A DNA stretch of 64,000 nucleotides from Yuukianura sp. NJ FZ-2021. Its lineage: Eukaryota. The position numbers were made by a program, and so were the translations under genes. Under the pieces are notes generated by a model, which did not search any database, had not been told where the DNA came from, and saw only the letters and a program-made list of their open reading frames with translations. This document shows, one piece after another, positions 22,801-64,000 of the stretch (the stretch's first letter is position 1; each line of letters starts with the position of its first letter). The DNA is taken from assembly GCA_046563655.1 (NCBI GenBank), contig CM102287.1, forward strand, positions 8,990,001-9,054,000, read 5' to 3'.

Positions 22801-22890
22801 GCGGTCAAAGAGGTCAAGTCAGTCCTCAAACCACGGTCAGGCAAAGAATACTCTAAGATTGATCGATCCCTCTTTACTCAAAATGACTGA
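4828..22890 (+). CDS. DOK7: Dok-7 family PH-PTB adaptor; exons 4828-4881, 7810-7855, 19556-19657, 19760-20215, 20349(or 20355)-21145, 21467(or 21473)-22323, 22410-22890
   Basis: Spliced N-terminus MDLHSLIEGHCKFRDGKK|WKSRWAVVTKLSPVA|DCLQLQVY matches the vertebrate DOK7 N-terminus (VEGQVKLRDGKKWKSRWLVLRKPSPVADCL). PTB motif WEIAHLRRYGMVDGRLVFEGGSRSG. All junctions are GT-AG and phase-compatible. Tail has many Tyr motifs (YDTP, YDVP, YVNT, YVNM). Confidence 0.92.
5334..6439. mobile_element. Long foldback/MITE with 484-bp near-perfect inverted arms (5334-5817, 5956-6439) in Dok-7 intron 1
   Basis: Arms are reverse complements with only about 3 visible mismatches; 138-bp spacer. Flanks TTAA-A-AGGCTG ... 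CAGCCT-TTCA look like a degenerate TTAA target site (Kolobok-like, inferred). Confidence 0.9.
9852..9912. repeat. Short tandem duplication (GATGGACGA..AAGTTAAGGACG units)
   Basis: Two full and two partial copies of the unit are visible. Confidence 0.7.
17475..18203. mobile_element. PIF/Harbinger (Tourist-like) MITE in Dok-7 intron 2
   Basis: TAA|AGCCTCTTTCACAC...GTGTGAAAGAGGCT|TAA: 3-bp TAA TSD, about 55-bp imperfect TIRs containing the palindrome CAACTGCCG-N-CGGCAGTTG. Confidence 0.85.
21175..21402. mobile_element. Tc2/pogo-like MITE in Dok-7 intron 5
   Basis: CCGTATTTCCTC ... GAGGAAATACGG|TA with doubled subterminal GCGTCTTATA motifs; left flank CA, right flank TA. Confidence 0.7.
21991..22148 (+). 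repeat. Coding 30-nt tandem repeat (PPQVPTTQ[A/T]A, about 5 copies) in the Dok-7 tail
   Basis: CCCACCTCAAGTACCCACCACTCAA(G/A)C units, one 27-nt variant, frame preserved. Confidence 0.9.
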
Positions 22891-38244: not shown

Positions 38245-40779
38245 TTAAGTTAACATATTCACATCAAACTCCATTTGTGTTCCTTCTTCCTGTTCGTTAT
38301 CCTCTTCAGATTCGTCCGAATCCTCTGGACTACAATTGGACAACTCGTCTTCCGCTACTTTATTCTGTACCGCAGCATTTTCGGTTACTTTTCGTTTCCT
38401 TCTGGTTCTACCACCAACGGCAGGTGGTGATCGTGTCAATTTGCGGTTAGATTTAAATCCTGTTATTGCCCTTGCTTCCTCTTCAGTCTTGCCATGTTGC
38501 GACATGAGATGAGTGCACAGATTTAGACGTCTCATATAAACTCGATTACAAATTGAACACGTAGGGGTGCTGGCCTTGATTTCTTTGTAGACGCGATCCC
38601 CGTTCGGTAGAACACGAAAAATCGTGGGCCGTCTCATTTTCGCTGCAACCGTCGCTTCCTCTTTTGTCATTTTATGAGTATACATATAATGTTCTTTCAA
38701 CGCGCTCTTGAATGCAAATGCATTCCCACAGATCTCACAAACTTGGTCACGAATCTGCGACTTCTGGTGGACACGGTATACATGGCCTCTGAGGTGATGG
38801 GCAGCTTTAAAAGTTTTTTTGCATTGGTCGCAAGAGAAATTCCGTTCTTCGGTGTGAACAAATTGATGTTTTTTCAGAAAGATTTTGCTTGAAAATGCCA
38901 TTCCGCAGGTCTCACAAGTAACAGTCTTCAGATTGAGTACGACGTCAAGATGAGTATTTTCATGCAGTGTCAAACCACCTATAAAATTCACACACAAAAA
39001 TTGTAACAATAAGTTACAAACTTGAGAGAGCGAAATTGCCCAAATTACCTTTCGTGGTAAACGCAGCGCCACAATAAGTACAGAGGAATTCCTTCACAAG
39101 CGGTGTGTCACTATGTAGTACTTTCATGTGGTGTTCAAGACCATCTTTTGTTGTCAATGCTTTGCCACAAATGTCACAAGTGTAGTTACGCACCTTGAAA
39201 TGCTTGCACTTGATATGCTGGATTATATACGTCGTTGTGTCATACGTTTTCCCACATAATGGACAGGGACGAATCAATTTGGCCTTTGGAAACAAAACTG
39301 CTGATTTTTCAATATCCTTGTAGCCAGTATTCAATTTATGGTCTTTTTCCTGATGAACCACCCACTCCTTGAATGTATCGAAATTCACATCTTTGCAGTC
39401 GTCTCCATTACATTTGTATCGGCTTGAATCGATCAAGGCCTTTTGCTCGTCGGTGAGATCTTCAAGATGGTAGCGGAGCTCGCTGGGAATCACAGGATAC
39501 TGAAATTTTAAAAATACAAAATACTAAGCAAATAATTTATTCATGAAGAAGAAAAAAGGTGACCAATGAACTTACACGAGCACCATGTTCAATGGTCTTA
39601 TGGCGATCGAGGAGCGTCTGTGTTGCAAAACGCTGTGTACAATCCGTTTCTGAGCAAACCGCGGTCTTACGCTTTTCCCGCTCGTAGGCTCTAGTGCCAA
39701 CAGCATTTGCTCGTCGCACTCGCTTTCCCAAATCAGGATCAACGTTTCCTGAATGTTGCTTCTGCAAATAAAAATCAAATCGAAAAATTCTTACTCAACG
39801 TTTCTACTTTTGTGCCAGAATTAGAATTAAGTACTACACACGACAGTGGTACCTCTGAAATATGAAAGGTAGGCCTTACGTTCGAATCAGAATCATCTTT
39901 TGTAGTCTGCAGTAGCTTCCTTCTAAGAATACGAGCTTTATTCCGCAGATTACTGTTAGTAAGAGGAGTAGTTGGATTTTTCTTATCGCCAGAGGAGATT
40001 TTCAGTATTTTGTTTCGTTTTGCAGTTGCCGCTGGTTTCCGGTTTGATCGTCGCGGCAAAGTAGTTGCAGGTAGAGTAGCTGGCTTTTGCTCAACAGAAG
40101 TTCCTAAGCTTTCCAAAAAACTGTAAGAGTCATCTACGTCATCGTTTTCCGTAATTTCTTGTTGTTCATGCTTAGCAACATCATCAAAATTTTCACCAAC
40201 AACGCAGTCAGGAACAATCGTTTCTGGTTGAGAAACTATATCCGGAATCGATGTCGGGAGATGTTCCGGAAAGATAATCAATGGTAAGTGGGAAAATTGT
40301 GGAAGTATGACGCTAACAGGCAATGTGCCTGTTTGCTGAGTTGTCTGGGGCAAACCGCTGCTTGGCTCCAGAGTTGATGAAGGAGCAGGACAACGACGCC
40401 CCTTCGTTCTCGGTTTTCTTTTCCGGGCGGTGGAGCTGAATTGATTAGAAACCTCCTTTTGAACATTTCGTACGTGAGAGTCGGGATGTGACCTTTCAAA
40501 GAAGGCGGAGTAGAGAGCCATAAGTTTTGCAAATGGTGTTCCACAGGGAATGCAAAGATTGAGGCGTTGAGAGTCCAGTTCAGCTTGTGGGATTGATTGA
40601 CGAGACTTCAAAAGCAGCTCAAGTCCTTCATAAATGCTTCGTATGGTGCCATTTTCAGCAGCATAAGCCCCGAGCTTGCCGTCTGCTGTTAAAAACTGAG
40701 CACAACAGTTAGCACATTTAGTGACAGATACAGATACAGATGGAGACTGGATTGAACCAGCATCAGCATTGCTATCCAT
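38245..40779 (-). CDS. ZAD-like + C2H2 zinc-finger protein, paralogue A; exons 40779-39880, 39761-39576, 39499-39049, 38978-38245
   Basis: N-terminal CANC...LCIPC..F (ZAD-like), about 9 C2H2 fingers, acidic tail; GT-AG introns conserved across three paralogues. Confidence 0.88.
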
Positions 40780-41021
40780 CGCTCTTCGCCTACCTAGTCC
40801 AAAAACAAACAACAGAAGTTAGCATTATACAACTTATTTTATTTCTTAATCGTTCGTATCGTAACGTAGGTACAGTACATGTGATTTACCTAAACTTCCG
40901 GAAAGAAGCCAGTAGTTTTTGAAAACCTCAGCACTCAGCGTTAGCAGTAGTAACTACGATTGATTAGTTTAAATTGAATTTGATTCTAAATTCTAGATTT
41001 TAAAAAGTCAAAAATAAAAAA

Positions 41022-41263: not shown

Positions 41264-44200
41264 TTAAGTTAGGACATTCAAATCAAAGTCTATTTGTGTT
41301 CCTTTTTCCTGCTCGTCGTCTTCAGATTCATCCGAAGTGTCTGGACTAGCACTGGACAACTCGTCTTCCGATACTTCCTTTTGTATCGCAGCATTTCCGG
41401 TTACTTTTCGTTTCCTTCTGGTTCTACCACCAACGGCAGTTGGTGATCGTGTCAATTTGCGGTTAGATTTAAATCCTGTTATTGCCCTCGCTTCTTCTTC
41501 AGTTTTGCCATGCTGGGATATGAGATGAGTGCAGAGATTTAGACGTCTCACATAAACTCGATTACAAATTGAACACGTAGGGGTGTTGACCTTGATTTCT
41601 TTGTAGACGCGATCCCCGTTCGGCAAAACACGAAAAATCGTGCCTCGTCTTATTTTCGCTGCAGCTCTGGCTTCCTCGTTTGTCATTTTGTGAATATAAA
41701 CAAAATGATCTTTCAACCCGCTTTTGAATGCGTATGCATTCCCACAGATCTCACAGACTTGGTCACGAATCTGGGACTTCTGGTGGACACGGTATACATG
41801 GCCTTTGAGACTATGAAGAGTTTTAAAAGTGTTCTTGCATTGGTCGCAAGAGAAATTCCGTTCCTCGGTGTGAATAGCTTGATGCCTTTCTAGACGGCTT
41901 TTTCTAGCAAACGCCATTCCGCAAGTCTCACAAGTATTAGTCTTCGTATTGCGTAGGATGTCAAGATGAGTATTTTCATGCGCAGTCATACCAGCTATAA
42001 AATTCAAAATTCGAAAAAATTGTTCATATCTGTAAATTAAGTTACAAACTTAAGAAAAAAAATTGACATCATTACCTTTCGTTGTAAACGCCTCACCACA
42101 GTAGGTACAAAGGAATTCCTTCGGAACCGGTGTGTCACTATGCAGTACTTTCATGTGCTGTTCAAGACCAGCTTTTGTTGCCAATGCGTTGCCACAAATG
42201 TCACAAGTGTAGTTACGCACCTTGAAATGCTTGCACTTGATATGCTTGACTATATACGACGTTGAGACAAACTTTTCCCCACATAATGGACAGGGACGAA
42301 TCAATTTGTCCTTTGGAAACAAAACTGCCGAGTTTTCAATATCCTCGTAACCAGTATTCAATTGATGGTCTTTTTCCTGATGAACCACCCACTCTTTGAA
42401 TGTATCGAAATTCACATCTTTACAGTGGGCTCCATTACATTTGTATCGGCTTGAATCGATCACGGCTCTTTGCTCGTCTGTTAGGTCGTCAAGACGGTAG
42501 CAGACCTCGCTGGGAATCACAGGATACTGAAATTTTAAAAATAAATACAAAATATTATTTAGCAAGCAACTAATTTATTCACAAAGAAAAAAAAATAAGC
42601 CGCCCAATGAACTTACACGAGCACCATGTTCAATCGTCTTATGGCGATCGAGGAGTGTCTGTGTTGCAAATGGCTGTGTACAATCCATTTCTGAGCAAAC
42701 GAAAGGTTTCTTCCGCTTTTCCCGGTCGGAGGCTCCAGTGGCAACAGCATTTGCTCGTCGCACTCGCTTTTCCAGCACAGAATCAATGTTTCCTGAATGC
42801 TGGTTCTGCAAATAAAAATCAAATCGAAAAAGTCTTACTCAACGTTGCTCCTTTTGCCAGTGAATTAGTAGTATACTAGTACGAAATATGAAAAGGTACG
42901 CATTACTACTGGGTCTCCCCAGACGGACGAAAAAAAAATGAGATTGTGCATCGCGTTTCAACCAAAAAACAAACAACTTTTCCAAAATCACCCCGAGTTT
43001 CACAAAATCTACCGAAAAAATATTTATGCTAAGGCCGGATTACTATGGAGGGGCAATAACGACTTTCACTAATAATTATATTTATATTACAATTAAATAT
43101 TTTTCCCTTAAAATAAAAAAAAGTTCACAAAAAGAAAAAAAAAGTTTTGGAAAAAAATTTTTTTTTTGTATTTAAAAAAAATAATTTTTGTACTTAAAAG
43201 TATTTTTCTAAATTAGAAATATTTTTTTATATCTAAAAAAAGTTTTTCAAAAAAATATTTTTTTAGTTATAAAGTTTATTTTCGCTTAAAAAAACTTTAT
43301 TTTTGACGGAAGAAATATAAATGTGGAGCACTGTGAGAAAACTTTTTTTTTTAAAAAGAAAAAATTTTTCTTTGGGATTGTGTCGTCATAAGCCAGGATT
43401 CGGTGGCCACTTGTGTTCTCCCAATTGCATACCACGCGAGTCCACTGTTGTCGGTTTTGAAATTCAGAGAGGACCATGCCTTTGACAAGGAAGTTTTTCT
43501 CGTGCCAGGGAGGTGGTCCAACTGCTCGATGGACAATAGACTTGCATAGAGCGTAGGTAGCGCTAGTCTGGCGGAAAGAAGGAGAAACACACGATATCAG
43601 CAATGAAAGGGGCCAGAATTGATAACGCTGGAAAGAAAAACATGTTTCTCATTCTTTCCGCCAGACTAGCGCTACCGACACTCTATGTAAGTCTATTGTC
43701 CACCGAGCACCGAGTCCTCTCTGAATTTCAAAACCGGCAACAGTGGAGTGGCGTGGTATGCAATTGGGAGAACACAACTGACCACCGAATCCTGGCTTAT
43801 GACGTCACAACACCAACTTCAGAAAGAAAATTTTTTTTCTTTTTTTCATTTAAAAAGTTTTTTTCACAGTGCTCCACATTTATATTTTTTCGGTCAAAAA
43901 TAAAGTTTTTTTTATACAAAAAAAAAACTGTATAACTAAAAAATACTTTTTTAAAGAACTTTTTTTTTAATATAAAAAAATATTTCTAATTTAGAAAAAT
44001 ACTTTTAAGTACAAAAATTATTTTTTAAATACGAAAAAAAAATTTTTTTCAAAACTTTTTTCTTCTTTTTGTAAACTTTTTTTTTTATTTTAAGGAAAAA
44101 AATTTTAATTATAAGATAAAAATAATTATTAGTGAAAGTCGTTATTACCCCTCCATAGATTACACTTACATTTCCTAACCGTGACTGAGAACAGTTGTTT

Positions 44201-45677
44201 GAGAAAATTTACAAGCGAGTAAGAATTTTGCTAAAATGAAACAAAGGTAGGGTAAAGACGACTATCAGAGTAAGCTGGGGGTTTCGTTTCTTCGTTTGCT
44301 GGACTTCCAGTAGTTCCAGTATCGAATTCTAAATCCGGCTTGAGGAATGCTGGAGGAGGGGGGCGAGGAGGGGGGGTACGATTAAGAGGAGGAATGGTGA
44401 TCGGAATTGATGGCAGATTAGGTGGAAGAGCAGGATAACGTACAGCAGGAGGTAATGCTGGAAATGTCGGTGGCTGACGCTGCCGGCTTGTCGTAATTGT
44501 CGTCGGAAGCAAAGCTTAACAATAAAAACTAAAATTAATCCTTTTGTAATTGATTTCTGAAAACAATTGACTAACCCCTGCTGCAGCAAAGCCAACATGC
44601 CAGCCGACGTACACAGGCGTACAAGATAAGAGCAACTAGGAAAACTGTAAGCAAAAGTATGACGTCATTAGGTTCAAAAATGAAGGAATGAAGCTTAACT
44701 ATCAACAACGTTTTACATGACTTACTCAACACGGAATACACCAACTCAATTTCCCACTTGTCATTTAGAAATTTCGTTATTCTGAAACGCGCAAGAAAAA
44801 AGGTGTGGGAAGTGGGCCTTAAAAAATTGTACATCGCCAAAGAAACCTGTTTTTTTTTGGTGCATCAAAATGGAAAAGCTGCACAATCTCATTTTTTTTT
44901 CGTCGGTCTGGGGAGACCCAGTAGTACGTTCGAATCGGAATCATCTTTTGTAGTCTGCAGTAGCTGCCTTCTAAGAATACGAGCTTTATTCCGCAGATTA
45001 CTGTTAGTAATAGGAGTAGTTGGATTTTTCTTATCTCCAGAGGAGAATTTCAGTATTTTAATCCGTCTTGCAACTGCGGCAGGTTTCCGGGTAGCTCGTT
45101 GCGGCAAAGTACTTGCAGGAGGAGTAACTGGCTTTTGTTCAACAGAAGTTCCTAAGTTTTTCAAATAAGTATAAGAGTCATCCACGTCATCGTTTTCCGT
45201 AATTTCTTGTTGTTCATTCGTAGCAACATCATCAAAATTCTCATCAACAAGGCAGTCGGGAACAATCGTTTCTGGTTCATAAACTGCATCCGGAATCGAT
45301 ACTGGGAACTGCTCCGGAAGTATAATGATGGTGGGACTGAATTGGCTAGAAACCTGATCTTGAAGTTTTCGTACGTGAGAGTCAGGATGTGACCTTTCAA
45401 GAAAGGCATAGTAGAAAGCCATAAGTTTCACAAAGGGTGTTCCACAGGGAATGCAAACCCTGAGGCGTTGAGAGTCCAGCTCAGCTTGTGGGATTGATTG
45501 ACGAGACTTAAAAAGCAGCTCAAGTCCTTCATAAACGCTTCGTATGGTACCATTTCCACCAGCAGCATAAGCCCCAAGCTTGGCGTCTGCTGTTAAAAAC
45601 TGAGCACAACAGTTAGCACATTTAGTGACAGATACAGATGGAGACTGGATTGAACCAGCTTCAACATTGCTATCCAT
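41264..45677 (-). CDS. ZAD-like + C2H2 zinc-finger protein, paralogue B; exons 45677-44928, 42805-42617, 42526-42076, 41994-41264
   Basis: Highly similar to paralogue A; frame intact. First coding intron is expanded by a 2-kb insertion; internal deletion of about 50 aa after the ZAD-like domain. Confidence 0.85.
43043..44158. mobile_element. Nested foldback element with imperfect arms of about 520-550 bp
   Basis: CTATGGAGGGG...CCCCTCCATAG termini; flanking direct repeat ATTA (or GATTAC if the ends are trimmed by 1 nt); arms about 43043-43590 and 43641-44158. Confidence 0.88.
44231..44834 (-). CDS. Transposon-borne spliced ORF: single TM, Cys cluster, Pro-rich tail; exons (44834 or 44781)-44726, 44644-44576, 44514-44231
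   Basis: Two phase-1 GT-AG introns (81 and 61 nt) give ...WEIELVYSVLIFLVALILYACVRRLACWLCCSRALLPTT...PPPRPPPP...KPPAYSDSRLYPTFVSF*; start uncertain. Confidence 0.6.
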
Positions 45678-46228
45678 CGCTCTTCGCCCACCTAATTCCA
45701 AAAACAAAGAACACAATACACAAGTTAGCGTATACAACGTATTTTTTAATCGTTAGTACATGTGATTTACCTAAACTTCCGGAAGGAACGAAGGAAGCCG
45801 AAGCCAGTAGTTTTTCAGCACTCAGCGTCAGCAGTAGTAACTGTAGCAAAGAAGGTCGTACCAACGACTCCAAACAACCACGTAATAATCGACTCCTGTC
45901 TTTATCAAGTGTTATTCTTGATCTTAGTAGTATGTGTCTGATCGATTAGTTTAATTGAATTTGAATTAGATTTTAAATTATAAATTCTAAAAAGTCAAAA
46001 ATAAAATACAAGGACTAAATATTCGTTCCCGCGTTCGTCCACACACATACAGATCACCCGTTCACCACAGCTGGGTATTTTTACACAAATTTTCTAAGCA
46101 GCACTGTCTAAACATACTTCTGACTAAACGTAAAACGTAAAATCAAAATCAAGGTGACTGTTGAAAGCAGTAATATAATCCAACCGCTGGAATTCAAACT
46201 TGTAATAAAAGTAAAAGTAAAGTTTAGA

Positions 46229-49200
46229 TTAAGTTAGCATATTCAAATCAAAGTCCATTTGTGATTCTTCCTGTTCGTCATCGTCTTCAGATTCATCCGA
46301 AGTGTCTTGACTTTCACTGAACAACTCTTCTTCTGATACTTCCTTTTGTACCGCAGCATTTCCGGTTACTTTTCGTTTCCTTCTGGTTCTGGCAGCAACA
46401 GCAGTTGGTGATCGGGTCAATTTCCGGTCAGATTTAAATCCAGTTATTGCCCTCGCTTCTTCTTCAGTCTTGCCATGTTGCGACATGAGATGAGTACAGA
46501 GATTTAGACGCCTCACATAAACTCGATTGCAAATTGAACATGTAGTGGGGTTGACCGGGATTTCTTTGTAGACGCGATCCCCGTTCGGTAGAACACGAAA
46601 AATCGATTGGCGTTTCATTTTAGCTGCAACTCTGGCTTCTTCTTTCGTCATTTTATGAATATACATAAAATGTTCTTTGAGCGAACTCTTGAAAGCGTAT
46701 GCATTCCCACAGATCTCACAAACTTTGTCACGAATCTGCTGGTCCTTCTGGTGGATACGGTAAACATGGTTTTTTAGGCTTTGAGCAGATTTAACAGTTT
46801 TGTTGCACTGGTCACACGAGAATTTCCTCTCTTCGGTGTGAACAATTTGATGCTTTTGTAGGTGATAATTTTTTGAAAATGCCTTTCCGCAAGTCTCACA
46901 ACTAAAAGTCTTCGTATTGAGTAGGATGTCAAGATGAGTGTTTTCATGTAGAGTCAAGGCACCTACAAAATTCCAGAGTTAACAAAATTCCGCAAGAAAG
47001 AAAACTATGAATCCAAACAAGAACGTACCTTTCGATGCAAACGCATCACCACAATAAGTACAAAGGAAATCCTTCGCAAGCGGTGTGTCACTATGTATTA
47101 ATTTCATGTGCTTTTCAACACCAGTTTTCGATGACAATGCTTTGCCACAAATACCACAAGGGAAGTCACGCGTGTTGAAATGCTTGCGCTTGATATGATT
47201 GATTATATCCGTCGTAGAGACACACTTTCTCCCACATAATGGACATGGGCGAATCAATTTGTGCTTCGGAAATAGAACTGATTGCTTTTCAATATCCTCG
47301 TAGCCAGTGTTCAATTGATGGTCTTTTTCCTGATGAACCACCCACTCCTTGAATGTATCGAAATTCACATCTTTGCAATCGGCTCCATCACACTTGTACG
47401 TTACGCTCGAGTCGATCAAGGCCCTTTGCTCATCGGTTAGATCTTGCAGGCTTTCACGGAACTCGCTGGGAATCATAGGATACTAAAATATGAAAAATAC
47501 AAAACACTGAAGCGAACTTGAGCAAGCAAACAATTTAGTTGTGATAAAAAATAAGCTGGTCGGTGAACTTACACGAACACCATGTTCAGTGGCTTTATGG
47601 CGATCGAGGAACGTCTGTGTTCCAAAACGCTGTGTACAATCCATTTCTGAGCAAACGAATGTTTTCTTCTGCTTTTCGCACTCATAGGAACTAGTACTAG
47701 CGTATGCTCGTTGAACTTGAACTTGCTCTTCCAATTCAGAATCACTGTTACCAGAATGATGTTTCTGCAAACAATAATCAAATTGAAAAATTCTTCAACA
47801 TTGCTCATTTCCACTTGATTAGTGCCTATGAAGTATCACTAAAAGGAAAAGATTTGCCTTACGTTTGACTCAGGATCATCTTTTCTGGTCTGGAGTAGCT
47901 GCTTCCTTCTATGAATATGAGGGTCGTTCAGCAGATTACTCTTAGTAGGAGTAGTTGGATTTTTCTTCACTGCGGAGTAGATTTTCAGTATTCTATTTCT
48001 TGTAGTTTCAGAGGATTCATGTTTCTTTTGTTTCGCAAAAATCCTTGGAGCAACAGGCTTTGGCTTTTGCTGGAAAGAAGCTTTTAAAGTTTTCCAGAAC
48101 GCGTAAGAGTGATCCAAGTGATCGCTTTCCGTAGGTTCATTTTGTTGATCCGTACCAACATCATCCAAATCCTCATCAACAATGCAATCGGGAACAATCG
48201 TTTCTGGTTCAGAAACTGCAACTGGAATCGATGTTGGAAGTGGAGTTTCCGGAAGGATAATGAATGGTAAGCGTGAAGATTGTGGAAGTATGACGCTAAC
48301 TGGTAATTTGCCTCTCTGCTGATTTGCTTGAGGCAAATCGTTGCTTTCCACACGAGTTGACGAAGGATCCGGACGAAGATGTCCCATCGTTACCGTGTCT
48401 CTTTCCCCGGCGGTGGAGCTGAAGTGATCAGAAACCTCCTTTTGAAGATTACGTACGTAAGAGTCGGAAAGTGATCTTTCAAGAAACGACGAGTAGCAAT
48501 CCATCAGCTTTTGAAAATGCGTTCCGCAGAGTGAGCAAAGGGTGAGCTTTTGAGAATTAAGTTCCGCTCGTGGGATTGATTGACGTGACTTGAATAGCAG
48601 TTGGAGTCCTTCATAGACGCTTCGTGAGGTACCATTCACATCAGCATCATACGTACTGACACCGAGGCTAAGGTCTGCTGTTAAAAACTGAACACCGCAG
48701 TTGACACATTTAGTAAAGGCAGAACATGGGAATACCGTGTTGACTTGATTGACGCTAGCTGGATTTGTGCCTCTCATGGTCCTAGACATCGGATATTGTT
48801 CTACTAGTCGTGAGTTTCGAGTTTTTGGAGGAGTAGCTACAGCTACAAAGGCAGGCTGACTTGCGCCAGCATCAGTATTGTTATCCAGTTCCAACCTGTT
48901 AAAAACACAACACAAATTAGCATAAAGAATTCCTTATTTAGTTTTGGATCAGAATCATTCTTCGAAATTAATTAAGACAATGTCACGTCACATGTTGAAT
49001 TCAAATCGAATTTTACTTTTCGTTACATGATTGCACAGATCATTATCATTACCTTAACTTCTGGGTGGAAGCCAAGCCAATAGACTTGTTATTAACGTCA
49101 CGATCAGAGTCAGCAGCAGTACTGTCTATATCCCTAAAAAACGAGTAGACAATTTTGCAAAAAAATGTTCGTTTCAATTTCGTTGCTCAAAGTTATCTCC

Positions 49201-50453: not shown

Positions 50454-52787
50454 TTACAGCATGTGTTGTTCAGCTTCATCTTCGGCGTCTGCATGTGCGT
50501 CGTCAGGAAGAATAGTAATGCTGGATTGCGGTTGTGGTTCTGGTTTAGCTGGAAATGATTCCGATGACTTACTGCTTTGAAACGATTGGTCTCTGTTTTT
50601 GCAGTTCTTGTAATGGCGAAAAAGTCTCGGTGCTTGGGCACTCACTAGCTGTCCACATTCCAGGCATTGCTGCTTCCTCTGTCCATCTAAAATGAACTCG
50701 GTGAAGTACGACCACACTTCACTCGGTGGCCTTCCGATGCTGCCTTGTCCGATTCTGTTACGCGGTATCTTGGGAGGTGGTGGCGGTAAGTCATCATCAT
50801 CGCCTGGAACAAAGGAAAGTACATACAAAAACGTTCTGTTTTCGTTGTGTTAAGTTAGTTCACTAACCAGCTTTTTGGCTTTCGGCAGCCGTTCCAGTAT
50901 CAATGGAACCACGATGTTGTCTAGGATTAACCTCAACTTGGATTTTGTGCTTGAACTTGAGATGTGCATGGAGAGATGATGTACTGCAATCCTTGACTTT
51001 GAGAATTGATTGGACACCTTCCTGGTCACAAAGTTTGCATAGTGCAGAGTCTCCGTTTTCCTCACGCAGGTAATACTTCCATACTGGAGTTCGAGTAACC
51101 CGTTCCCCAGGTTGAGGTTCTTCTTCGGAGTAAAATTTTACAAAAACTTTCTTTTCGAGTCCTTTTGGCACAGAAGATGGACCTGATAACAAGAAAAACT
51201 TAACTTTTTGATTAATTCGTTGCACCTCAATTTCAATTTACGTAAGTAGTAGAAGCAAACCTTCAGAATCAAGATTTGTATCTCCCGTGATAAGATCTTC
51301 GTCATTTCCGAAATCGCTCGGGAACGAATTCTCTTCAGCTTCGTCTCCACCTCCTTCCGAGTCTTCGAATTCACCACCTTATTTTAGAAAATGTTAATTA
51401 AAAAGTACAATTAACGTCAATTCCAAGAACTTACCTGACCCGTGTTTCATCTTCAGGCGTTTCCGTCGTTCACGTCTTGCTAATGTTGCTCGAACGGCTC
51501 GTCGCTTTCCATATAACGAATTTTGGTTGGGCTCTTCAGTGGAAAAGTCAAGATCTCCTTCGACTGTTTCAGCTCCGTTCTCAGAAAACTTGAGTGACAG
51601 TCCACTGGCAGCAAGATCGGAAATGTTTTTCCAGTGGGCCAACACAGTTTCGTGCAGAGCATGCTCTCTATCCAGTAACTTCTTCTGCACTGTAAACAAC
51701 TCTGCGAAGAAGTAAAAACGTATTTGATGAGTTAACTTCCACCAGATCAATACTTGTCGACATCACGACGTTCGACGTACCGTTTCTGGTCATAAGAACT
51801 TGTTCGACAATTGTCATTTTCATGTCCACTTCGGCCCGAAACTTCTTGAGAACTTCTTCCAGCTGTGTAACTTTCTCTTGCAATCCGAGCTCAGTAGATT
51901 CGTCCAGCCCTTCATTAGTAGAAACTCCCCGAACTTGGGGCATGTACTGCTGACATTCTGAAAATCAAATCACGATGTAAAGTATCTTTCAAATTAATCC
52001 GCTTCCGTCAAAGAGATTTGCTTCCTGTATAAACTGCTTACCTGGATGATCGGCATGGCGCTTTGCCAAATGATTCTTCAAGCGATCCACAAGCCCAATT
52101 TGTTTCCAGTCGCATAATCTACATTTGGCTATCTCAATTCTCCCATTCGGATTTGGCTCTCGGTCAAAGCTGTCCCAGATTGGATCCCTTGGACGTGGCA
52201 TACCGATGTCGTACTCTTGGAAAAATTAAAAAAAGACTTGAAGTCAAAATCATGCAACATACTAATTAATTAAAGTCGTGCGCAGGCAGGGGTGGCAAAA
52301 TTACGTCAGTTTCAGGAAAGTGACGTTAGTAACGTTACTAACGTTTAAAACGCGTTTAAATCATAAATTGTGGAAAATCCGTTCCAGTCCTACGGCAGTC
52401 GCGTTAGCAGAAAGATACTGAGCGCAAATCTTAAGCCATGGCCTTTTGTAATTTTTCCCAATCAAACCTAACCCTTGAAAATTTTACTTGTGATTTGCGA
52501 ACTGGCTCTTCCAGATTCTGAATCTGCATGATACCAATATCAAAAATCATCGTTCGTTACAATACAATTAAATCCACCATTCAAGTTTACCACTTACCTG
52601 GCTTGGAAGTAGAAGATGTCGCCTCAATCTCAATTGCTGAGTTGTGGGTAGCGAAGTGAGCTTTCATACGGCCTGGAATCCCAATATGCTTCCAACTGCA
52701 TATCGAACATTTTGCTATTGGTTGGTTACCGTGAGGATTGGGTTCAGCCTCAAAGTGATCCCAAACCGGATCTTTGCCGCGTGGCAT
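50454..52787 (-). CDS. Multi-BED zinc-finger protein (4 BED domains); exons 52787-52598, 52215-52042, 51957-51781, 51701-51435, 51377-51261, 51182-50868, 50803-50454
   Basis: Four W..F/Y...CxxC...HxxxH/C BED signatures (DPVWDHF, DPIWDSF, TPVWKYY, SEVWSYF), a coiled-coil and acidic linkers; all exons join in frame. Confidence 0.8.
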
Positions 52788-54587: not shown

Positions 54588-54659
54588 CTAAAGACCTAAT
54601 CAAAACAGAAATCAAGACTCTTGACTTAAATCCAATTTAACTTTTTTTTTATTTCAGAA

Positions 54660-56481
54660 ATGGATGATATTTTACCGGCCGAGGTATGTGGTAATTTAAA
54701 CTCTGAAGTTAACGTATTTATAGATATGCTACTTCATAAGTATGAAGTTTTAATTGTTTGCTTCTTGCAGATTATCAAGAAAATACTTGAGAAGGTAGAC
54801 AATATCAAGGATCTCAACAACTGCCGTTTAGTGAACCGGACATGGAATAAGTTGGGTTGGGAAGCGCTGAAAACATCCTACACTCCACTCATTTGCTTCT
54901 CAAATGATGAGTCCTTATTGGGGTTTCTTGACTGCTACAAAGCTTCCATTGGAATTCAATTGACCAAATTTCATTTTCAGCTGGATAAGCTCTCTTCTAC
55001 CGTTACACAGGAATTTATTACGTTTGCCGATCAATATTCATTGCAGTTGGAAGAGCTAAGCTTTGAGTTAAGCGTGAAGATTTTCACTACGGGAGATGTG
55101 GATAAACTGCAACTAATGTTATCCTTCATCTATGCATCGCCATATCTTACTCGTTTGAGTATTAACGTCTCCCAGCGGAATAGCCGACGCCGACAACAAC
55201 AGCCATCACCATTCAATAAAGCAGGATTAAGTCCCTACCTTCTCCCGTTCGTTCCGGAATCGCTGCCAAACCTTCGATCAATCCAATTTAATCGCGACAT
55301 CGCAAATGCAACTGAATCGGACGCAGACGGTCGCTGGTTTCTGCTCACATTACTCAAGAATATTTGTCCAAATCTTCGAGAAATTGTCGTCTCAACATGG
55401 AAAGACACTCAAGTATCTCTTGTCACACCACTGCTCACTCTCTTCAAAGACACGGAACACATCATTCTGCGAAACGTTTCGTTTGCTACTTACGATTCGT
55501 CTGATATTGAAGCTCTTCGAGTTAGAAGTTACAAGTTGACGAAACTGGATCTACGAATTACCTACGACTATCATAAAGCGAATGCGCGCAGAAATCCCTA
55601 CCCGAACCTCCGCCAAGTTCATTCTGTTTTTTATTCATGGATTGAACATCACTCCAAGACATTGAAGAGATTGACACTTATTTTCGAAAGAGTTTCAGAA
55701 TTTAATTTGCCGAAACTGGAAGTCCTGGAGTCACTTGAGATTGGGTTGGGAGCTTACGATGATGACGATGACGATGGTCCTCTCCTGCCATTGAATACTT
55801 CAGTAATGCCAATGCTAAAATCCGTCACGCTCAAATTTTATAATGACCGCTGGAAACTTTTCACCTTTGGAACGTTTGTCACCGTCGAGTCGTTGACAAT
55901 CCTGGGCTACCAAACAGAAGATATTCTCACCCCTTGGGAAAAAGTGTTCCCGAATCTCAATACACTGGAATTGATTTGTCTAAGGAAAAACCAATACACA
56001 AGTATTCTGGTTCGCACTAAAAACTTGCGACACTTGAAGCTCGAGTTTACAATAAACACAGGACGGTTATTGGGACCACCAGCAGAAGTATTAGATAAAC
56101 TCCCAGACTACCCAAGATTTCCTTTACTAAAATGCTTGGCATCTTACGATCGTATGTTAATTTTTTAAATTGAAACTTGAAATGATAATGTCTCACATTT
56201 TTTGTTTTTGAATGTCATTTTAGAACTGGAATCTCTTTACATCAAAGAAGCCGGATCCTCAACACTTGCTGAAATTGTCAAGATGTCTCAAGAAGGATTG
56301 CTCAAACGTTTAGTAAATCTAACGTTCGAGGGACACACGATGGTAATTGTATCTCAATCTCAATTGATCAAGTCACTCAATTATGATTAATTATCAATGT
56401 CATTTGTATTAATTTGTATAGATGACGAGCGACCAAATTGAAATTCTGAAATCCGTCCATGGGAATGTCTCGTTCTTGTAG
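54660..56481 (+). CDS. F-box + LRR-like protein, paralogue 1; exons 54660-54683, 54771-56151, 56224-56342, 56422-56481
   Basis: LPAE|IIKKILEKV...DLNNCRLVNRTWN F-box signature followed by LxxLxL repeats (LPNLRSI, CPNLREI, FPNLNTLEL). Confidence 0.88.
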
Positions 56482-57404: not shown

Positions 57405-60270
57405 ATGGGTGACATTTTGCCGGCCGAGGTATGTGATATAGTTAAACTTTGAAGTTAATGAGGCGATTTACAGATTCGCTTATACGCAATTTCCCATAAG
57501 ACTTTTGGTGCATTTATTTCCTGATTGGTTAGGCGCTCAAAAAACTACGACCACACTTTTCGCATTAGCATACGCTGCTCCACATCCCGAGAATCGGCTT
57601 CCGGACGAAAACAGGACCCTTCGTCCACAAAACATAGGTTTTCTGGATGACGTTCCAGAAATCCACGGATTTTTGCTTTCTTTTCCTACGCATGGCAAAA
57701 CGGTTGAAGATTCGTCAAAAAGCTGATTCTCGGGATGTGGAGCAGCGTATGCTAATGCGAAAAGTGTGGTCGTAGTTTTTTGAGCGCCTAACCAATCAGG
57801 AAATAAATGCACCTTAAGATTGGGTCAGAGTTCACGAATTTTGTGTTTACAATTTACAATTTCGTATTACGTCACTAAGAGTTGGGGCAACGTGAGAATT
57901 GAGGCTAAGAAATGGCTCACCCACTTCGCCATACCTATTCAGAAAAACCGCGAATGGTTCTCAAATTTGAAATTTTACGCAGTGATTCGCGAGTTAGCAT
58001 GAGTTGTACAAAATTTCAATCGTCAAGAATCCACCCGGCAGGGTTTTGCATGATAACGTAATGTGGGATTTCTCAATTCTCAGTCGTTGCTATGTCTACA
58101 AAGCGTTTTTTAGCGTTATTTTTATTGACCTGATGTCTCACCTTAACGTATATTTATAGATTCACACAATTGAGACTGAGAGATATGGCACTCCATAGTG
58201 TGAGATTTTAATTGTTTGTTTCTTGTAGATTATCAAGAAAATACTTGAGAAGGTAGACACTGCCAAGGATCTCAACAACTGCCGTTTAGTAAACCGGAAA
58301 TGGAATATGTTGGCTTGGGAAGCGCTGAAACCATCCTACACTCAGCAGCTCATTTCCTTCGGCAATGATGAGTCTCTTTTGCGGTTTCTCGACTGCTACA
58401 AAGCTTCCATTGGAATTCAATTTACCAAGTTCCATTTTCATCTGGATAAGCTCTCTGCTACCGCAACACAGGAATTTGCTACGTTTGCCAATCAATATTC
58501 ATTGCAGTTGGAAGAACTTAGCTTTAAGTTTGGCATGAAGCTTTTCACTACAGTAGATGCGAACAAACTGCATCTGATGTTATCCTTGATCCATGCCTCG
58601 CCATATCTTACTCGTTTGAGTTTCAACGGCTCCCCGCAGTATAGCCAACTCCGGCCATCACCATCACCATTCAATAGAGCAGCTTTAAGTCACCACCTCT
58701 CTATTCTTCCGGAATCGCTGCCAAACCTTCGATCACTCCAATTTAATTACGGCATCACAACTGTCACGGAATCGGATGAAGATGTTCGTTGGTTTCTGTT
58801 CACATTACTCAGGAAGATTTCTCCAAATCTTAAAGAAATTGTTGTCTCAGCATGGAAAGACACACAAGTCTCTCGTGTCATGCCGTTGCTCACTCTCTTC
58901 AAAGACACGGAGCGCATCATTCTGCGAAACGTTTCGTTTGCTATTTACGATTCATCTAATATTGAAGCTCTTCAAGTTACAAATTACAAGTTGACCGAAC
59001 TGCATCTACGAGTTACCTACGACTATCATAAAGCGCTCCGCGCCGCGCGCCGAAATCGATTCCCAAACCGCGACCAAGTATATTCTACTTTACGTTCATG
59101 GCTGGAGCAACACTCCAAGACACTGAAGAGATTGAAGCTTCTTTTCGAAAACGTTTCACGCTTTCCTTTACCGAAACTGGAAGTGCTGGAATCGCTTGAC
59201 ATTGGGTTGGGAACTTACGATGATGATGACGATGACATCATTGACATCCCTGGCAATGGCAATGATCCTCCTGTACTGCCATTGAATACTTCAGAACTGC
59301 CAATGCTAAAATCCGTCACGCTAAACCTTTATAACGACCGCTGGAATCTTTTCACCTTTGGAGGCTTTGTCACCGTCGAGTCCTTGACAATCCATAACTA
59401 CCAAACAGAATGTATTGGCACTCCCTGGGAAAATGTGTTTCCGAATCTGAAGACACTGGAACTGATTTGTCTCAGGAAAAACCAATACGAAAGTATTCTA
59501 GTTCGTACTAACAACGTGCGACACTTGAAGCTCGAGTTTTTTATAAACATGGGAGTGCTAACATATGGATCACCAGAAGAATTAGCTAAACTCGAAGAAT
59601 TAGAGAAAGACTACCCAAGATTTCCTTCACTACAATGCTTGGCATCTTACGATCGTATGTTAATTTATTAAGAAACTTGAAATCAAGGTTGCTATAGCAA
59701 CCAATTGTATTGCTACAAGAGGTTATTCAATACCTCCGAAGTTTATAAAAATTCAGTGAAAACCAACAACTTTTTGGACCAATGGTCCAATTCCGTTACA
59801 TTACATAGTACATAATATTACATATTACATAGTACATACAAATCATTACCATAGTAAGGCACGGCAAAGCAAGTTTTGGAAAACAAAATATTTAACAAAA
59901 TTAAAAAACATCGAGTTAATGAATAACCTCTTGTAGCAATCAACAATCTTCTTGTTTACCCACCTTGCTTGAAATCATAATGTCTCACAATTTTGTTTTT
60001 GAATGTCATTTTAGAACTGGAATCTCTTTACATCAACGAAGCCGGATCCTCAACACTTGCTGAAATTGTCAAGATGACTCAAGAAGGATTGCTGAAACGT
60101 TTAGTAAATCTAACGTTCGAGGGGCACACGACGGTAATTCATTGTTTCTCAACTGATCAAGTCACTCACTTATGATTACTTATCAATGTCATTTGTACTA
60201 ATTCGTTTAGATGACGAGCGACCAAATTGAAATTCTGAAATCCGTCCATGGAAATGTCTCGTTCTTGTAG
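57405..60270 (+). CDS. F-box + LRR-like protein, paralogue 2; exons 57405-57428, 58229-59654, 60015-60133, 60211-60270
   Basis: Same exon structure as paralogue 1; the duplicated unit spans about 53360-56760 versus 56860-60550. Confidence 0.88.
57459..58142. mobile_element. TTAA-flanked insertion in intron 1 of F-box paralogue 2, containing an inner palindromic MITE (57507-57813)
   Basis: Paralogue 1 reads GAAG-TTAA-CGTAT; here TTAA occurs at 57455 and 58143. The inner element has 94-bp arms GGTGCATTTATTTCC...GGAAATAAATGCACC|TTAA. Confidence 0.8.
59684..59967. mobile_element. Small DNA-transposon insertion with 8-bp TSD (P- or hAT-like)
   Basis: CTTGAAAT|CAAGGT...ACCTTG|CTTGAAAT; internal 21-bp inverted repeat ATTGCTACAAGAGGTTATTCA; single CTTGAAAT in paralogue 1. 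Confidence 0.85.
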
Positions 60271-62552: not shown

Positions 62553-63149
62553 CCTCTGACCTGCTCATTTTTGTTACAACGTATGTAACAGTAACACCTT
62601 GCCGTACCGACTACCGAATTATTAATTAATTATGATTGTGTAACAATAAAGTTTATACGTCAGTTTCCAAAAGTTCAAAATGAATGTCAACACGCGAAAG
62701 GCGGCGAATTTTATTTGAATTTGACATTTCAATTTTGTATTTGTTAACTGAAGTGCAATTTGACGAAAGCAAAATGCCATTGCTTTTTCGAAATTGCATT
62801 TTATTTGGACATAATAAGTAAGTTCCATAATAACCTTGTGTTTTTAAATCTCTGCTGTTAAATTAGTCAATACTAAATTAATTCTTGATATTAATTTTGC
62901 GTAAGTTAGTGCTTTAGAAAAATTCCACTTCTATATTTTTATTTTTTTTTGTTTTGCAATTGCAATGGCAATATTAACGTCGAAATACGTCACCGTTGCC
63001 ATTGTAGTTGCAAAATTCCAATCGTCATCATCTGCTGAAGGAGAGGCTCTTCATTTTTTTGTTATCAATCAAAACAGAAACTATGGAGGGATTTTAGTAG
63101 CAAAACTAATTAAAGTTTCCCCCGCCAATTAACGTTTCCCCAATTAAAA

Positions 63150-63350
63150 AATTTAACTTTCGCCAATTTATGAATTGGCGAAAATTTAAACGGCGAAAAG
63201 TTAATTGGGGGGATTTTAAACGGCGAAAAGTTAATTGGGGGGATTTTAAACGGCGAAAAGTTAATTGGGGGGAATTTAAACGGCGAAAAGTTAATTGGGG
63301 GGATTTTAAACGGGGAGAAGTTAATCGGCGAAACTTTAACCGGCGAAAAG
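63150..63350. repeat. 30-bp minisatellite (TTTAAACGGCGAAAAGTTAATTGGGGGGA[T/A]), about 5-6 copies, with an inverted partial copy upstream
   Basis: Head-to-tail units directly visible at 63182-63350; TTCGCCAATT...AATTGGCGAA hairpin at about 63159-63182. Confidence 0.9.
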
Positions 63351-64000
63351 TGAGTGTTTCCCGCAAGCTTTTGTTTCCCGTCAATAGATTTCTCCCCCCA
63401 ATTGATTTGACAAAAATACTCAGGAGTGACACCGGGCACCTGTAATATATGGGCACCCAAATTATTTCATATTTATTTTAAACATTATATAAATTAAATT
63501 AAACTAATTTTAAAACTAATTAAAATCTCCAATTATTTTTAATTAATATTTAGCACACTTAGTTTATCATTAATTAACTTATAATACATGAATGATTGAA
63601 TTTAATGTTGCCCATGTATGATGTAGGCGTTGTGACATGGTAAATGACTTTTTCATTTACCATTTTGTTTTGAAATCATATAGAATCATACAAGTTCTCA
63701 GGTTTCAAACCAATTTAACCAATTTAAATTAAGTTTAAGTTTCTAAGTTGAAGTCAGGTGCCTGGTCTAAAGAAAGTCATGTCAGTGGAAGCAACTGCTG
63801 CTGCAAGCAATTTCTGGATACCATTTTCTCAACTACCTAAAGGTCAGTGCATAATGAATTTGTAAAGGGCCCCCTAATTTTCAATCGTGTTCTTGAGCTT
63901 AACCAAAGTCAAACTTAATGCAGTATATTAATTAACTTTTCAGAGCAGCAAACTTGAATCATTATTTGATTAACCTGAGAACTTGTATGATTCTATATGA

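What the first reader, a model, noticed from the sequence alone, without database searches (positions are those of the whole stretch)
42906..44924. DNA transposon carrying an intron-containing cargo gene for a membrane protein with late-domain-like motifs
Seen: between 45-bp TIRs with a TA TSD there is no transposase. Instead, a spliced ORF has two phase-1 introns whose removal creates a clean TM helix, a juxtamembrane C-W-L-C-C cluster, a Pro-rich tail, and terminal PPAY and LYPTF. Knowledge: PPxY binds Nedd4-family WW domains, LYPxL binds ALIX (both are viral budding late domains), and juxtamembrane Cys clusters are often palmitoylated. Inference: either Pack-type DNA capture of a host gene (introns retained, so not a retrocopy) or a dedicated accessory gene of this transposon family, possibly linked to vesicle/ESCRT trafficking.
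Basis: partly seen in the sequence, partly recalled or inferred. Interest (0 to 1): 0.8.

Follow-up and report, generated by a model that had tools for sequence, protein, structure and literature searches.

The report
Small transposon carrying orphan coding segment
A small cut-and-paste transposon in a springtail genome, itself invaded by a common palindromic repeat, carries a coding-looking segment for a membrane-anchored, proline-rich peptide with no known relatives; it is a modest, rare animal example of a DNA transposon carrying non-transposase coding DNA, and its expression and function are untested.

Summary
The structural observation holds. The TIRs are 45 bp long and match at 44 of 45 positions (42906-42950 / 44880-44924), with TA on each side. 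Two tandem paralogues of the host zinc-finger gene, in the same window, show the uninterrupted target: the 2,019-bp unit entered as one piece at the TA of an intron's GTAAG donor. No reading frame in it matches a transposase.

- The genome is a springtail's.
- 1.1 kb of the interior (43043-44158) is a separate, multi-copy palindromic repeat. Public contigs contain the same element without it, so the core element is about 0.9 kb.
- "Intron 1" is not needed. It is open in frame, and a TM helix forms with or without it.

Exon 3 has the codon usage of real genes of this window (0.263 bits/codon against 0.235±0.073; 0 of 2000 shuffles reach it). AT-rich intron 2 separates two GC-rich blocks at splice-like sites. 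The N-terminal third shows no coding signal.

No homologue or donor gene was found, and no whole genome is held. One sequence variant lacks most of exon 3. PPAY and a YPxL-type motif occur at chance-level frequencies.

Best reading: a non-autonomous TA-targeting element carrying a captured, intron-containing gene fragment. The ESCRT/late-domain idea is unsupported.

The parts
42904..42905 (.). left copy of the TA target-site duplication
   Evidence: the paralogues have a single TA here, inside the intron donor GTAAG
42906..42950 (+). left terminal inverted repeat (45 bp)
   Evidence: 44 of 45 positions match the right TIR
42951..43042 (.). left subterminal region of the core element (downstream trailer of the minus-strand ORF once the nested repeat is taken out)
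   Evidence: contigs join 43037 directly to 44158
43043..44158 (.). nested multi-copy palindromic (foldback/MITE-like) repeat, arms about 81% alike, flanked by a short direct repeat (GATTAC is shared, so the duplication could be 2 to 6 bp)
   Evidence: pairs I1-I7; arms 80.7% over 564 nt; joint 43037>44158 in all 4 runs; up to 23 distinct contigs lie on one place here against 1-3 in the ORF
44159..44230 (-). sequence just 3' of the ORF's stop codon, GC 0.33
44231..44514 (-). exon 3 with stop codon: Pro-rich tail with YPAL, PPAY and a C-terminal LYPTF; codon usage like real genes
44515..44575 (-). intron 2 (61 nt, GC 0.21, GTTAGT...AAG); an alternative TAG acceptor at 44530/29 would change the frame
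44576..44644 (-). exon 2: hydrophobic helix, then RR and a C-W-L-C-C cluster; GC 0.52
44645..44725 (-). putative intron 1 (81 nt, GTAAGT...CAG), open in frame and not needed for the ORF or the helix
44726..44834 (-). putative exon 1 from the only in-frame ATG (44834); no coding signal (-0.082 bits/codon), GC 0.38
44880..44924 (-). right terminal inverted repeat (45 bp)
44925..44926 (.). right copy of the TA duplication; on the minus strand it supplies positions +2 and +3 of the host intron donor
44928..45677 (-). first coding exon of the host gene (the middle one of three tandem zinc-finger paralogues); its donor now reads GTACTA instead of GTAAGG/GTAATG
42578..42805 (-). next open host reading frame after the interrupted intron (intron 42806-44927: 2122 nt, 101 nt without the insertion); only its 5' acceptor end at 42805 is fixed, the 3' end is where the frame closes and no splice donor was placed; joining it to the first exon keeps the frame open

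Best explanation
Shown: the unit 42906-44924 is a non-autonomous cut-and-paste DNA transposon with 45-bp TIRs that duplicates a TA target. It was inserted as one piece into the 5' splice site of an intron of one member of a tandem zinc-finger gene family in a springtail genome. Its core is only about 0.9 kb. The other 1.1 kb is a separate, multi-copy palindromic repeat that landed about 70 nt 3' of the ORF's stop codon.

Inferred:
- The core has no transposase, so it must be moved in trans by an autonomous TA-targeting element with matching ends. That partner has not been seen.
- Most of the core is a captured piece of genomic DNA from a lineage-specific host gene: a TM/Cys-cluster exon, a 61-nt intron and a terminal Pro-rich exon.
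- The reading frame is completed upstream by an in-frame ATG in element sequence that shows no coding signature.
- If the product were made, it would be a small N-out/C-in membrane peptide with a cytosolic PY-motif tail.
- The family does not look strongly constrained to keep it, because one sequence variant has lost most of exon 3.
For: Insertion as one unit:
- TIRs and TA.
- The host minus the element and one TA aligns colinearly with both paralogous introns.

No transposase.

The nested repeat is separable:
- Joint 43037>44158 appears in 4 of 4 runs.
- This includes a 340-nt contig from a second study (X4 record 22) with 0 differences. That contig ends exactly at 42904, the element terminus.

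Several sequence variants of the ORF-bearing core exist among the contigs:
- A form with an in-frame 12-nt deletion at 44353.
- A form about 13% diverged (50 other letters and 4 gap letters over 377 nt).
- A form that joins 43008 to 44477.

Exon 3 is coding-like:
- It scores 0.263 bits/codon, against 0.235±0.073 for 64 windows of clear genes of this window.
- Its other two frames score 0.034 and -0.239.
- 0 of 2000 dinucleotide shuffles and 0 of 300 stop-free shuffles reach the observed score.
- 10 of 189 other open frames of 60-110 codons in the window reach 0.242.

Exon/intron composition: GC 0.52 / 0.21 / 0.50 for exon 2 / intron 2 / exon 3, with the steps at GT..AG sites.

Rarity: only 8 of 352 windows of 721 nt across the whole window, real genes included, give an ATG-started spliced ORF of 153 aa or more under the same rules.
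Against: - No parent gene or any homologue was found. There were 0 hits among 1.84 billion representatives for exon 3, none by word search for exon 3 or for exons 1-2, and none in Pfam, PDB or the Atlas.
- Capture is therefore inferred from composition alone.
- Long open frames are common for this composition: 628 of 2000 shuffles.
- Three overlapping open frames lie on the same pyrimidine-rich strand.
- The stretch from the ATG to the end of exon 2 has no coding signal (-0.025 bits/codon).
- The acceptor of intron 2 is AAG, and a TAG acceptor 14 nt upstream (in the reading direction of the ORF) gives another frame.
- The superfamily is not established. No autonomous partner was seen, and the TIR start does not resemble the Tc1 or mariner ends that I recall.
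Confidence: 0.5

Rival explanations
1. The ORF is not and never was a gene. It is internal sequence of a deletion-derived non-autonomous element. A pyrimidine-rich, partly low-complexity stretch happens to be open, and splice-like motifs can be found around it.
For: - Open frames of 94 codons or more appear in 628 of 2000 shuffles of the region, and the exon 3 stretch stays fully open in 183 of 2000.
- Three long frames overlap on the same strand.
- The N-terminal part has no coding signal.
- No homologue exists anywhere searched.
- The Atlas recognition value is 1096, below the 2300 that 91 in 100 known-family proteins reach.
- The motifs occur at chance-level frequencies.
Against: - It was reached by 0 of 2000 shuffles and 0 of 300 stop-free shuffles.
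- The sharp GC steps coincide with GT..AG boundaries.
- The locus is among 8 of 352 windows with such a spliced ORF.
Confidence: 0.25
2. The ORF is an intact, expressed accessory gene of this transposon family. It encodes a small type-III membrane protein with a palmitoylatable Cys cluster whose cytosolic PPxY / YPxL tail recruits Nedd4-family ligases or ALIX. It spreads with the element.
For: - The complete ATG-to-stop ORF lies inside the 0.9-kb core and nearly fills it.
- One variant differs by an in-frame 12-nt deletion with 0 other differences over 313 nt.
- In a diverged contig end, read by hand from a 30-letter consensus, PPAY is kept while 4 of the 6 neighbouring residues differ.
- Charges flanking the helix fit N-out/C-in (my reading of the translation by the positive-inside rule, recalled).
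Against: - One variant joins 43008 to 44477 and so lacks most of exon 3.
- The same diverged contig end appears to carry 4 extra letters just 3' of PPAY. That would shift the frame and drop the LYPTF end (hand reading, weak).
- The N-terminal third has no coding signal.
- The motifs are not beyond chance.
- There is no homology to any PY-adaptor family.
Confidence: 0.18
3. There is no single mobile unit. A resident small gene merely lies between two unrelated TIR fragments or an inverted duplication.
For: Only two TIR copies are visible in the window, and the family is low-copy in the contigs.
Against: - Both paralogous introns are colinear with the host once exactly the stretch from TIR to TIR plus one TA is removed.
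- Without the insertion the intron would be 101 nt.
- A contig from another study ends exactly at the TIR terminus.
Confidence: 0.03

Closest known systems
Pack-TYPE / transduplicating non-autonomous DNA transposons (Pack-MULE, Pack-CACTA and others in plants)
   Same: A TIR- and TSD-bounded non-autonomous element whose interior is non-transposase genic DNA with an intron kept, which points to capture at the DNA level. (PMC8903248: I saw only the start of the abstract in the listing.)
   Different: - This is an animal (springtail) genome.
- The TA duplication points to a Tc1/mariner-type or similar family, not to Mutator or CACTA.
- The defining parent gene has not been found.
- The family is low-copy.
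Turmoil-1 of C. elegans (transduplication in an animal)
   Same: An animal DNA transposon that has incorporated protein-coding fragments and may have created a lineage-specific ORF (abstract of PMC2572040 read).
   Different: - In Turmoil-1 the captured pieces lie in the inverted terminal repeats, and their donor genes (rsp-2, cpg-3) are known.
- Here the segment lies between short TIRs and no donor is known.
Stowaway-like or deletion-derived non-autonomous Tc1/mariner elements
   Same: Short TIRs, a TA duplication, no transposase, presumably moved in trans, and variants with internal deletions. (PMC3814204: listing only. The rest is recalled.)
   Different: - Those usually hold remnants of the parent element, not an exon-intron-like ORF.
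- They usually reach high copy number.
- No autonomous partner has been identified here.
Small PY-motif membrane adaptors of Nedd4-family ligases (Commissureless, PMEPA1, NDFIP; all recalled, none fetched)
   Same: Predicted architecture: a short N-terminus, one TM helix and a Pro-rich cytosolic tail with PPxY.
   Different: - There is no sequence similarity to any of them (Pfam; 0 hits).
- The motif occurs at a chance-level frequency.
- Binding is untested.

Membership tests
TA-targeting cut-and-paste DNA transposon (Tc1/mariner-type), non-autonomous | terminal inverted repeats at both ends | tested here: met
   45 bp, 44 of 45 positions identical
TA-targeting cut-and-paste DNA transposon (Tc1/mariner-type), non-autonomous | TA target-site duplication, shown against an empty site | tested here: met
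   Both paralogous introns hold a single TA at the junction
TA-targeting cut-and-paste DNA transposon (Tc1/mariner-type), non-autonomous | an autonomous relative with matching TIRs that encodes a DD(E/D) transposase | not testable with these tools
   No whole genome is held. There is no transposase in the window. The TIR is absent from metagenome and viral contigs.
TA-targeting cut-and-paste DNA transposon (Tc1/mariner-type), non-autonomous | several copies at different genomic sites | tested here: inconclusive
   At least four sequence variants of the core lie among the contigs, and one contig ends exactly at the terminus. No second flank was read. The 'empty-site' joint 42903>44925 is explained by paralogue 1.
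Pack-TYPE / transduplicating transposon | interior derived from a host gene that still exists elsewhere (parent locus) | tested here: inconclusive
   No homologue in public proteins. No other copy in the window. The species' own genome could not be searched.
Pack-TYPE / transduplicating transposon | captured segment has genic features (coding frame, intron) | tested here: met
   Codon score of exon 3 is 0.263 bits/codon, reached by 0 of 2000 shuffles. GC steps 0.52 / 0.21 / 0.50 at GT..AG sites. This holds for exons 2-3 only; exon 1 shows no signal.
PY-motif / late-domain membrane proteins | PPxY motif in a cytosolic tail | tested here: met
   PPAY at tail residues 79-82. The motif appears in 3787 of 20000 shuffles of the tail, so it carries little weight.
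PY-motif / late-domain membrane proteins | ALIX-type YPx(1-3)L motif | tested here: inconclusive
   The cited LYPTF does not fit. YPAL at tail residues 27-30 does, but such a motif appears in 3888 of 20000 shuffles.
PY-motif / late-domain membrane proteins | sequence membership in a described family, or shown binding to WW domains or ALIX | tested here: not met
   No Pfam family, no PDB relative, 0 hits in 1.84 billion representatives. Binding cannot be tested here.

The most novel reading that the evidence does not exclude
The ORF is a working gene that belongs to the transposon. In that case a short cut-and-paste element in an animal carries, instead of a transposase, a complete intron-containing gene for a PY-motif membrane adaptor. 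The gene is kept in frame across copies and moves with the element. It would be either a selfish accessory function or a mobile host-range gene cassette.
Probability: 0.1. Interest if true: 0.75.

Novelty: new member of a known kind. Interest (0 to 1): 0.3.

Why it matters
Capture of genic DNA by cut-and-paste transposons is well documented in plants. By the 2008 abstract read, it was then unknown in animals apart from Turmoil-1. A springtail element with a TA duplication that carries an exon-intron-exon segment would add an animal case. It would also give a simple system, a 0.9-kb element with few copies, for asking how such capture happens and whether new small membrane proteins arise this way.

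As it stands this is a well-delimited but ordinary nested-transposon locus with an orphan ORF. The late-domain idea that made it attractive has no support beyond short motifs expected by chance.

Tried and rejected
- No RNA holder is listed among the 5 runs found, so the splice junctions could not be tested.
- I first took the window for a nematode because of its GC content, short introns and TTTCAG acceptors. I rejected this: a Dok-7/chico PTB exon has its best hits in the springtails Orchesella dallaii (73%) and Folsomia candida (70%).
- I first read the joint 42903>44925 as an empty allele. I rejected this: the contig's 27 differences without gaps over 44925-45213 match paralogue 1 of the window (28 mismatches, 0 gaps). 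The contig with 48 differences over 42073-42386 matches paralogue 3. There is therefore no evidence here for presence/absence polymorphism.
- The summed depths are not copy numbers, as the tool itself warns. I use only the numbers of distinct contigs and the joints.
- The first codon-usage run had one training ORF out of frame. It is superseded.
- The DNA alignment on the split flanks was uninformative and was replaced.
- These searches gave nothing:
  - Rfam on the whole window.
  - Earlier findings of this scan; one search returned only an unrelated bacterial note.
  - The TIR pattern in metagenome and viral contigs.
  - Exon 3 in metagenome contigs (597 pattern matches, none confirmed) and in viral contigs (61 matches, none confirmed).
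  - The ESM Atlas and the PDB.
- Exon 3 in the alternative frame (111-aa ORF 44329-44664) has no Pfam family and a codon score of 0.034 bits/codon. I rejected it as the coding frame.
- Paper searches turned up no report of springtail transposons carrying genes among the papers listed. This is not a claim that none exists.
Full report
**Where we are.** The window has 33-46% GC, short introns, and genes with arthropod relatives. A Dok-7/chico-type PTB exon at 19756-20223 finds its best matches in the springtails Orchesella dallaii (73% identity) and Folsomia candida (70%), followed by many insects. The genome is therefore a springtail's, from a species not in the protein collection. No whole genome is held for it.

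**The ends and the target site.**
- The only long, near-perfect inverted repeat that spans the finding is 42904-42950 / 44880-44926 (47 nt, 98%).
- Without the flanking TA, the TIRs are 45 bp long and identical at 44 of 45 positions.
- A 19-mer from the TIR occurs exactly twice in the 64 kb with up to 3 mismatches, against 0 expected.
- The window contains three tandem paralogues of a minus-strand gene with a Cys-rich N-terminal exon and C2H2 fingers: 38245-40818, 41264-45752 and 46229-48933.
- The element sits in the middle paralogue. When the element and one TA are removed in silico, the host sequence aligns colinearly through the junction with the corresponding intron of both neighbours.
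- The neighbours read AAC|GTAAGG at that point, so the target TA was positions +2 and +3 of the intron donor. The host intron is now 2122 nt and would be 101 nt without the insertion. Joining the exon before it to the open frame after it keeps the reading frame open.
- The host donor now reads GTACTA. By the usual 5' splice-site consensus (recalled) this is weaker. Whether it still works is untested.
- Conclusion: the 2,019-bp unit entered as one piece with a TA duplication.

**What lies between the TIRs.** None of the 22 reading frames that I scanned in or overlapping the element matches a Pfam family above its cut-off, and none matches a transposase.

More than half of the interior, 43043-44158, is an imperfect palindrome. 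Its arms are 80.7% alike over 564 nt.

The contigs of four public DNA runs (three from one sample, one from another study) were laid on 41500-46500. They show that this palindrome is a separate repeat:
- All four runs hold a joint from 43037 to 44158 that skips 1120 nt, with 6 shared letters at the joint.
- In the run from the other study, a 340-nt contig covers 42904-43037 and 44158-44363 with no difference from the window. It ends exactly at 42904, the element's terminus.
- Up to 23 distinct contigs lie on single places of the palindrome, against 1-3 in the ORF region.
- The basic element is therefore about 0.9 kb. This copy has been invaded, about 70 nt 3' of the ORF's stop codon, by a common foldback-type repeat.

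**The ORF, checked mechanically.**
- On the minus strand, exons 44834-44726, 44644-44576 and 44514-44231 give a 462-nt CDS of 153 aa. The donors are GTAAGT and GTTAGT, and the acceptors are CAG and AAG.
- There is one strong hydrophobic segment with a Kyte-Doolittle 19-residue mean of 2.48. It is followed by RR, a C-W-L-C-C cluster and a 94-residue tail with 25 prolines, PPAY and a C-terminal LYPTF.
- 'Intron 1' is 81 nt long and open in frame. If it is retained, the ORF is 180 aa and the hydrophobic segment scores higher, at 2.74. The helix therefore does not depend on that splice.
- A TAG acceptor at 44530/29 would put exon 3 into another open frame, the 111-aa ORF 44329-44664.

**Is it more than chance?**

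*Open-frame length is not.*
- 628 of 2000 dinucleotide shuffles of 44159-44879 contain an open frame of 94 codons or more.
- The exon 3 stretch stays fully open in 183 of 2000 shuffles.

*Other measures are.*
- I built a codon table from 4021 codons of clear genes of this window.
- The other two frames of exon 3 score 0.034 and -0.239.
- None of 2000 dinucleotide shuffles and none of 300 stop-free shuffles reach the observed value.
- Only 10 of 189 other open frames of 60-110 codons in the window reach 0.242.
- GC content steps 0.52 / 0.21 / 0.50 / 0.33 across exon 2, intron 2, exon 3 and the 3' flank, with the steps at the GT..AG sites.
- Under the same splice rules, only 8 of 352 windows of 721 nt across the whole window, real genes included, yield an ATG-started ORF of 153 aa or more.

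*The N-terminal part does not look coding.*
- Exon 1 scores -0.082 bits/codon, and the whole stretch from the ATG to the end of exon 2 scores -0.025.
- Its GC content is 0.38.

I conclude that exons 2-3 with intron 2 look like genuine genic DNA, either present or recent. The N-terminal third looks like a frame extended into non-coding element sequence.

**Relatives.**
- Exon 3 has no match among 1.84 billion representative proteins at E≤0.001.
- Word-indexed searches found nothing: of 6 candidates for exon 3, none scored, and the stretch from the ATG to exon 2 found no candidate at all.
- There is no Pfam family, no PDB relative and no usable Atlas hit; the recognition value was 1096.
- There are no relatives in metagenome or viral contigs.
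- There is no other copy in the window.
- No donor gene is known. The species' own genome, the place where a donor would be, could not be searched.

**Other copies.** One search shows at least four sequence variants of the core among the contigs:
- The window's own form.
- A form without the palindrome that differs over 44158-44470 only by a 12-nt, in-frame deletion at 44353.
- A form about 13% diverged (50 other letters and 4 gap letters over 44162-44538), also without the palindrome.
- A form that joins 43008 to 44477 and so lacks most of exon 3.

I read by hand one diverged contig end from a 30-letter consensus. It keeps PPAY while 4 of the 6 neighbouring residues differ, but it seems to have 4 extra letters just 3' of it, which would shift the frame before LYPTF. 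That reading is weak. The sequences themselves are not available to me, so dN/dS cannot be computed.

The joint 42903>44925 looks like an empty site, but it comes from paralogue 1. The contig's 27 ungapped differences match the 28 between host and paralogue 1 in the window. It is not evidence of polymorphism.

**The motifs.**
- PPxY occurs in 3787 of 20000 shuffles of the tail, and YPx(1-3)L in 3888 of 20000. Both occur together in 719 of 20000 (post hoc).
- LYPTF does not fit the ALIX-binding consensus as I recall it. YPAL at tail residues 27-30 does.
- The charges around the helix favour N-out/C-in (positive-inside rule, recalled).
- None of this goes beyond architecture. No family of PY-motif adaptors is matched.

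**Verdict.**
- Shown: this is a real, low-copy, non-autonomous TIR element with a TA duplication. It carries a nested palindromic repeat and sits in the donor site of an intron of a tandemly duplicated zinc-finger gene.
- Most likely (about 0.5): its core carries a gene fragment captured at the DNA level, with an intron retained, and an ORF completed by chance upstream.
- Rivals: a chance ORF (0.25), a functional accessory gene (0.18), and no single mobile unit (0.03, contradicted).
- Closest known things: Pack-TYPE transposons of plants, and Turmoil-1 of C. elegans, whose abstract describes transduplication as then unknown in animals.
- I file it as a new member of a known kind, of modest interest until the genome and RNA of this species are examined.

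Noticed in passing
window 38245-40818, 41264-45752, 46229-48933 (minus strand): Three tandem paralogues of a gene with a Cys-rich N-terminal exon (no Pfam family) and several C2H2 fingers. The middle one hosts the element and lacks a 150-nt stretch of exon 1 that paralogue 1 has (joint with 150 letters between at 45326/45330).
   Followed up: partly
window 44925-44927 (minus strand): The insertion changed the host intron donor from GTAAGG-type, as in both paralogues, to GTACTA. Splicing of this paralogue may be impaired. All host exons examined remain open.
   Followed up: partly
window 43043-44158: A multi-copy imperfect palindrome of about 1.1 kb. The central sub-palindromes are 92-93% complementary and the AT-rich outer arms 73-82%. 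It has mirrored 120-aa and 122-aa open frames without any Pfam family. The shared GATTAC at the joint leaves the length of its target duplication (2 to 6 bp), and so its superfamily, open.
   Followed up: partly
window 54630-56168 and 58229-59671 (plus strand): Two tandem single-exon ORFs of 512 and 480 aa that resemble each other. They have only sub-threshold F-box and LRR matches.
   Followed up: no
window 19519-22890 (plus strand): A Dok-7/chico-like gene (IRS-type PTB domain) with a long Pro/Thr/Gln-rich repetitive tail. It was used here only to place the organism among the springtails.
   Followed up: partly
window 50454-51237 (minus strand): Two adjacent open frames. The second has a sub-threshold BED zinc-finger match (19.0 bits against a cut-off of 20.6). 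It may be part of a BED-finger gene or a domesticated hAT remnant.
   Followed up: no
window 63106-63477: A short-period tandem repeat that is open in several frames on both strands, visible as repeated peptide units in the ORF list.
   Followed up: no
window 41500-42835 in run X4: The run from the second study covers the right flank and the element core with identical or near-identical contigs, but shows no depth in 7 of the 8 bins over the host's left part. This may be low coverage or a structural difference.
   Followed up: no
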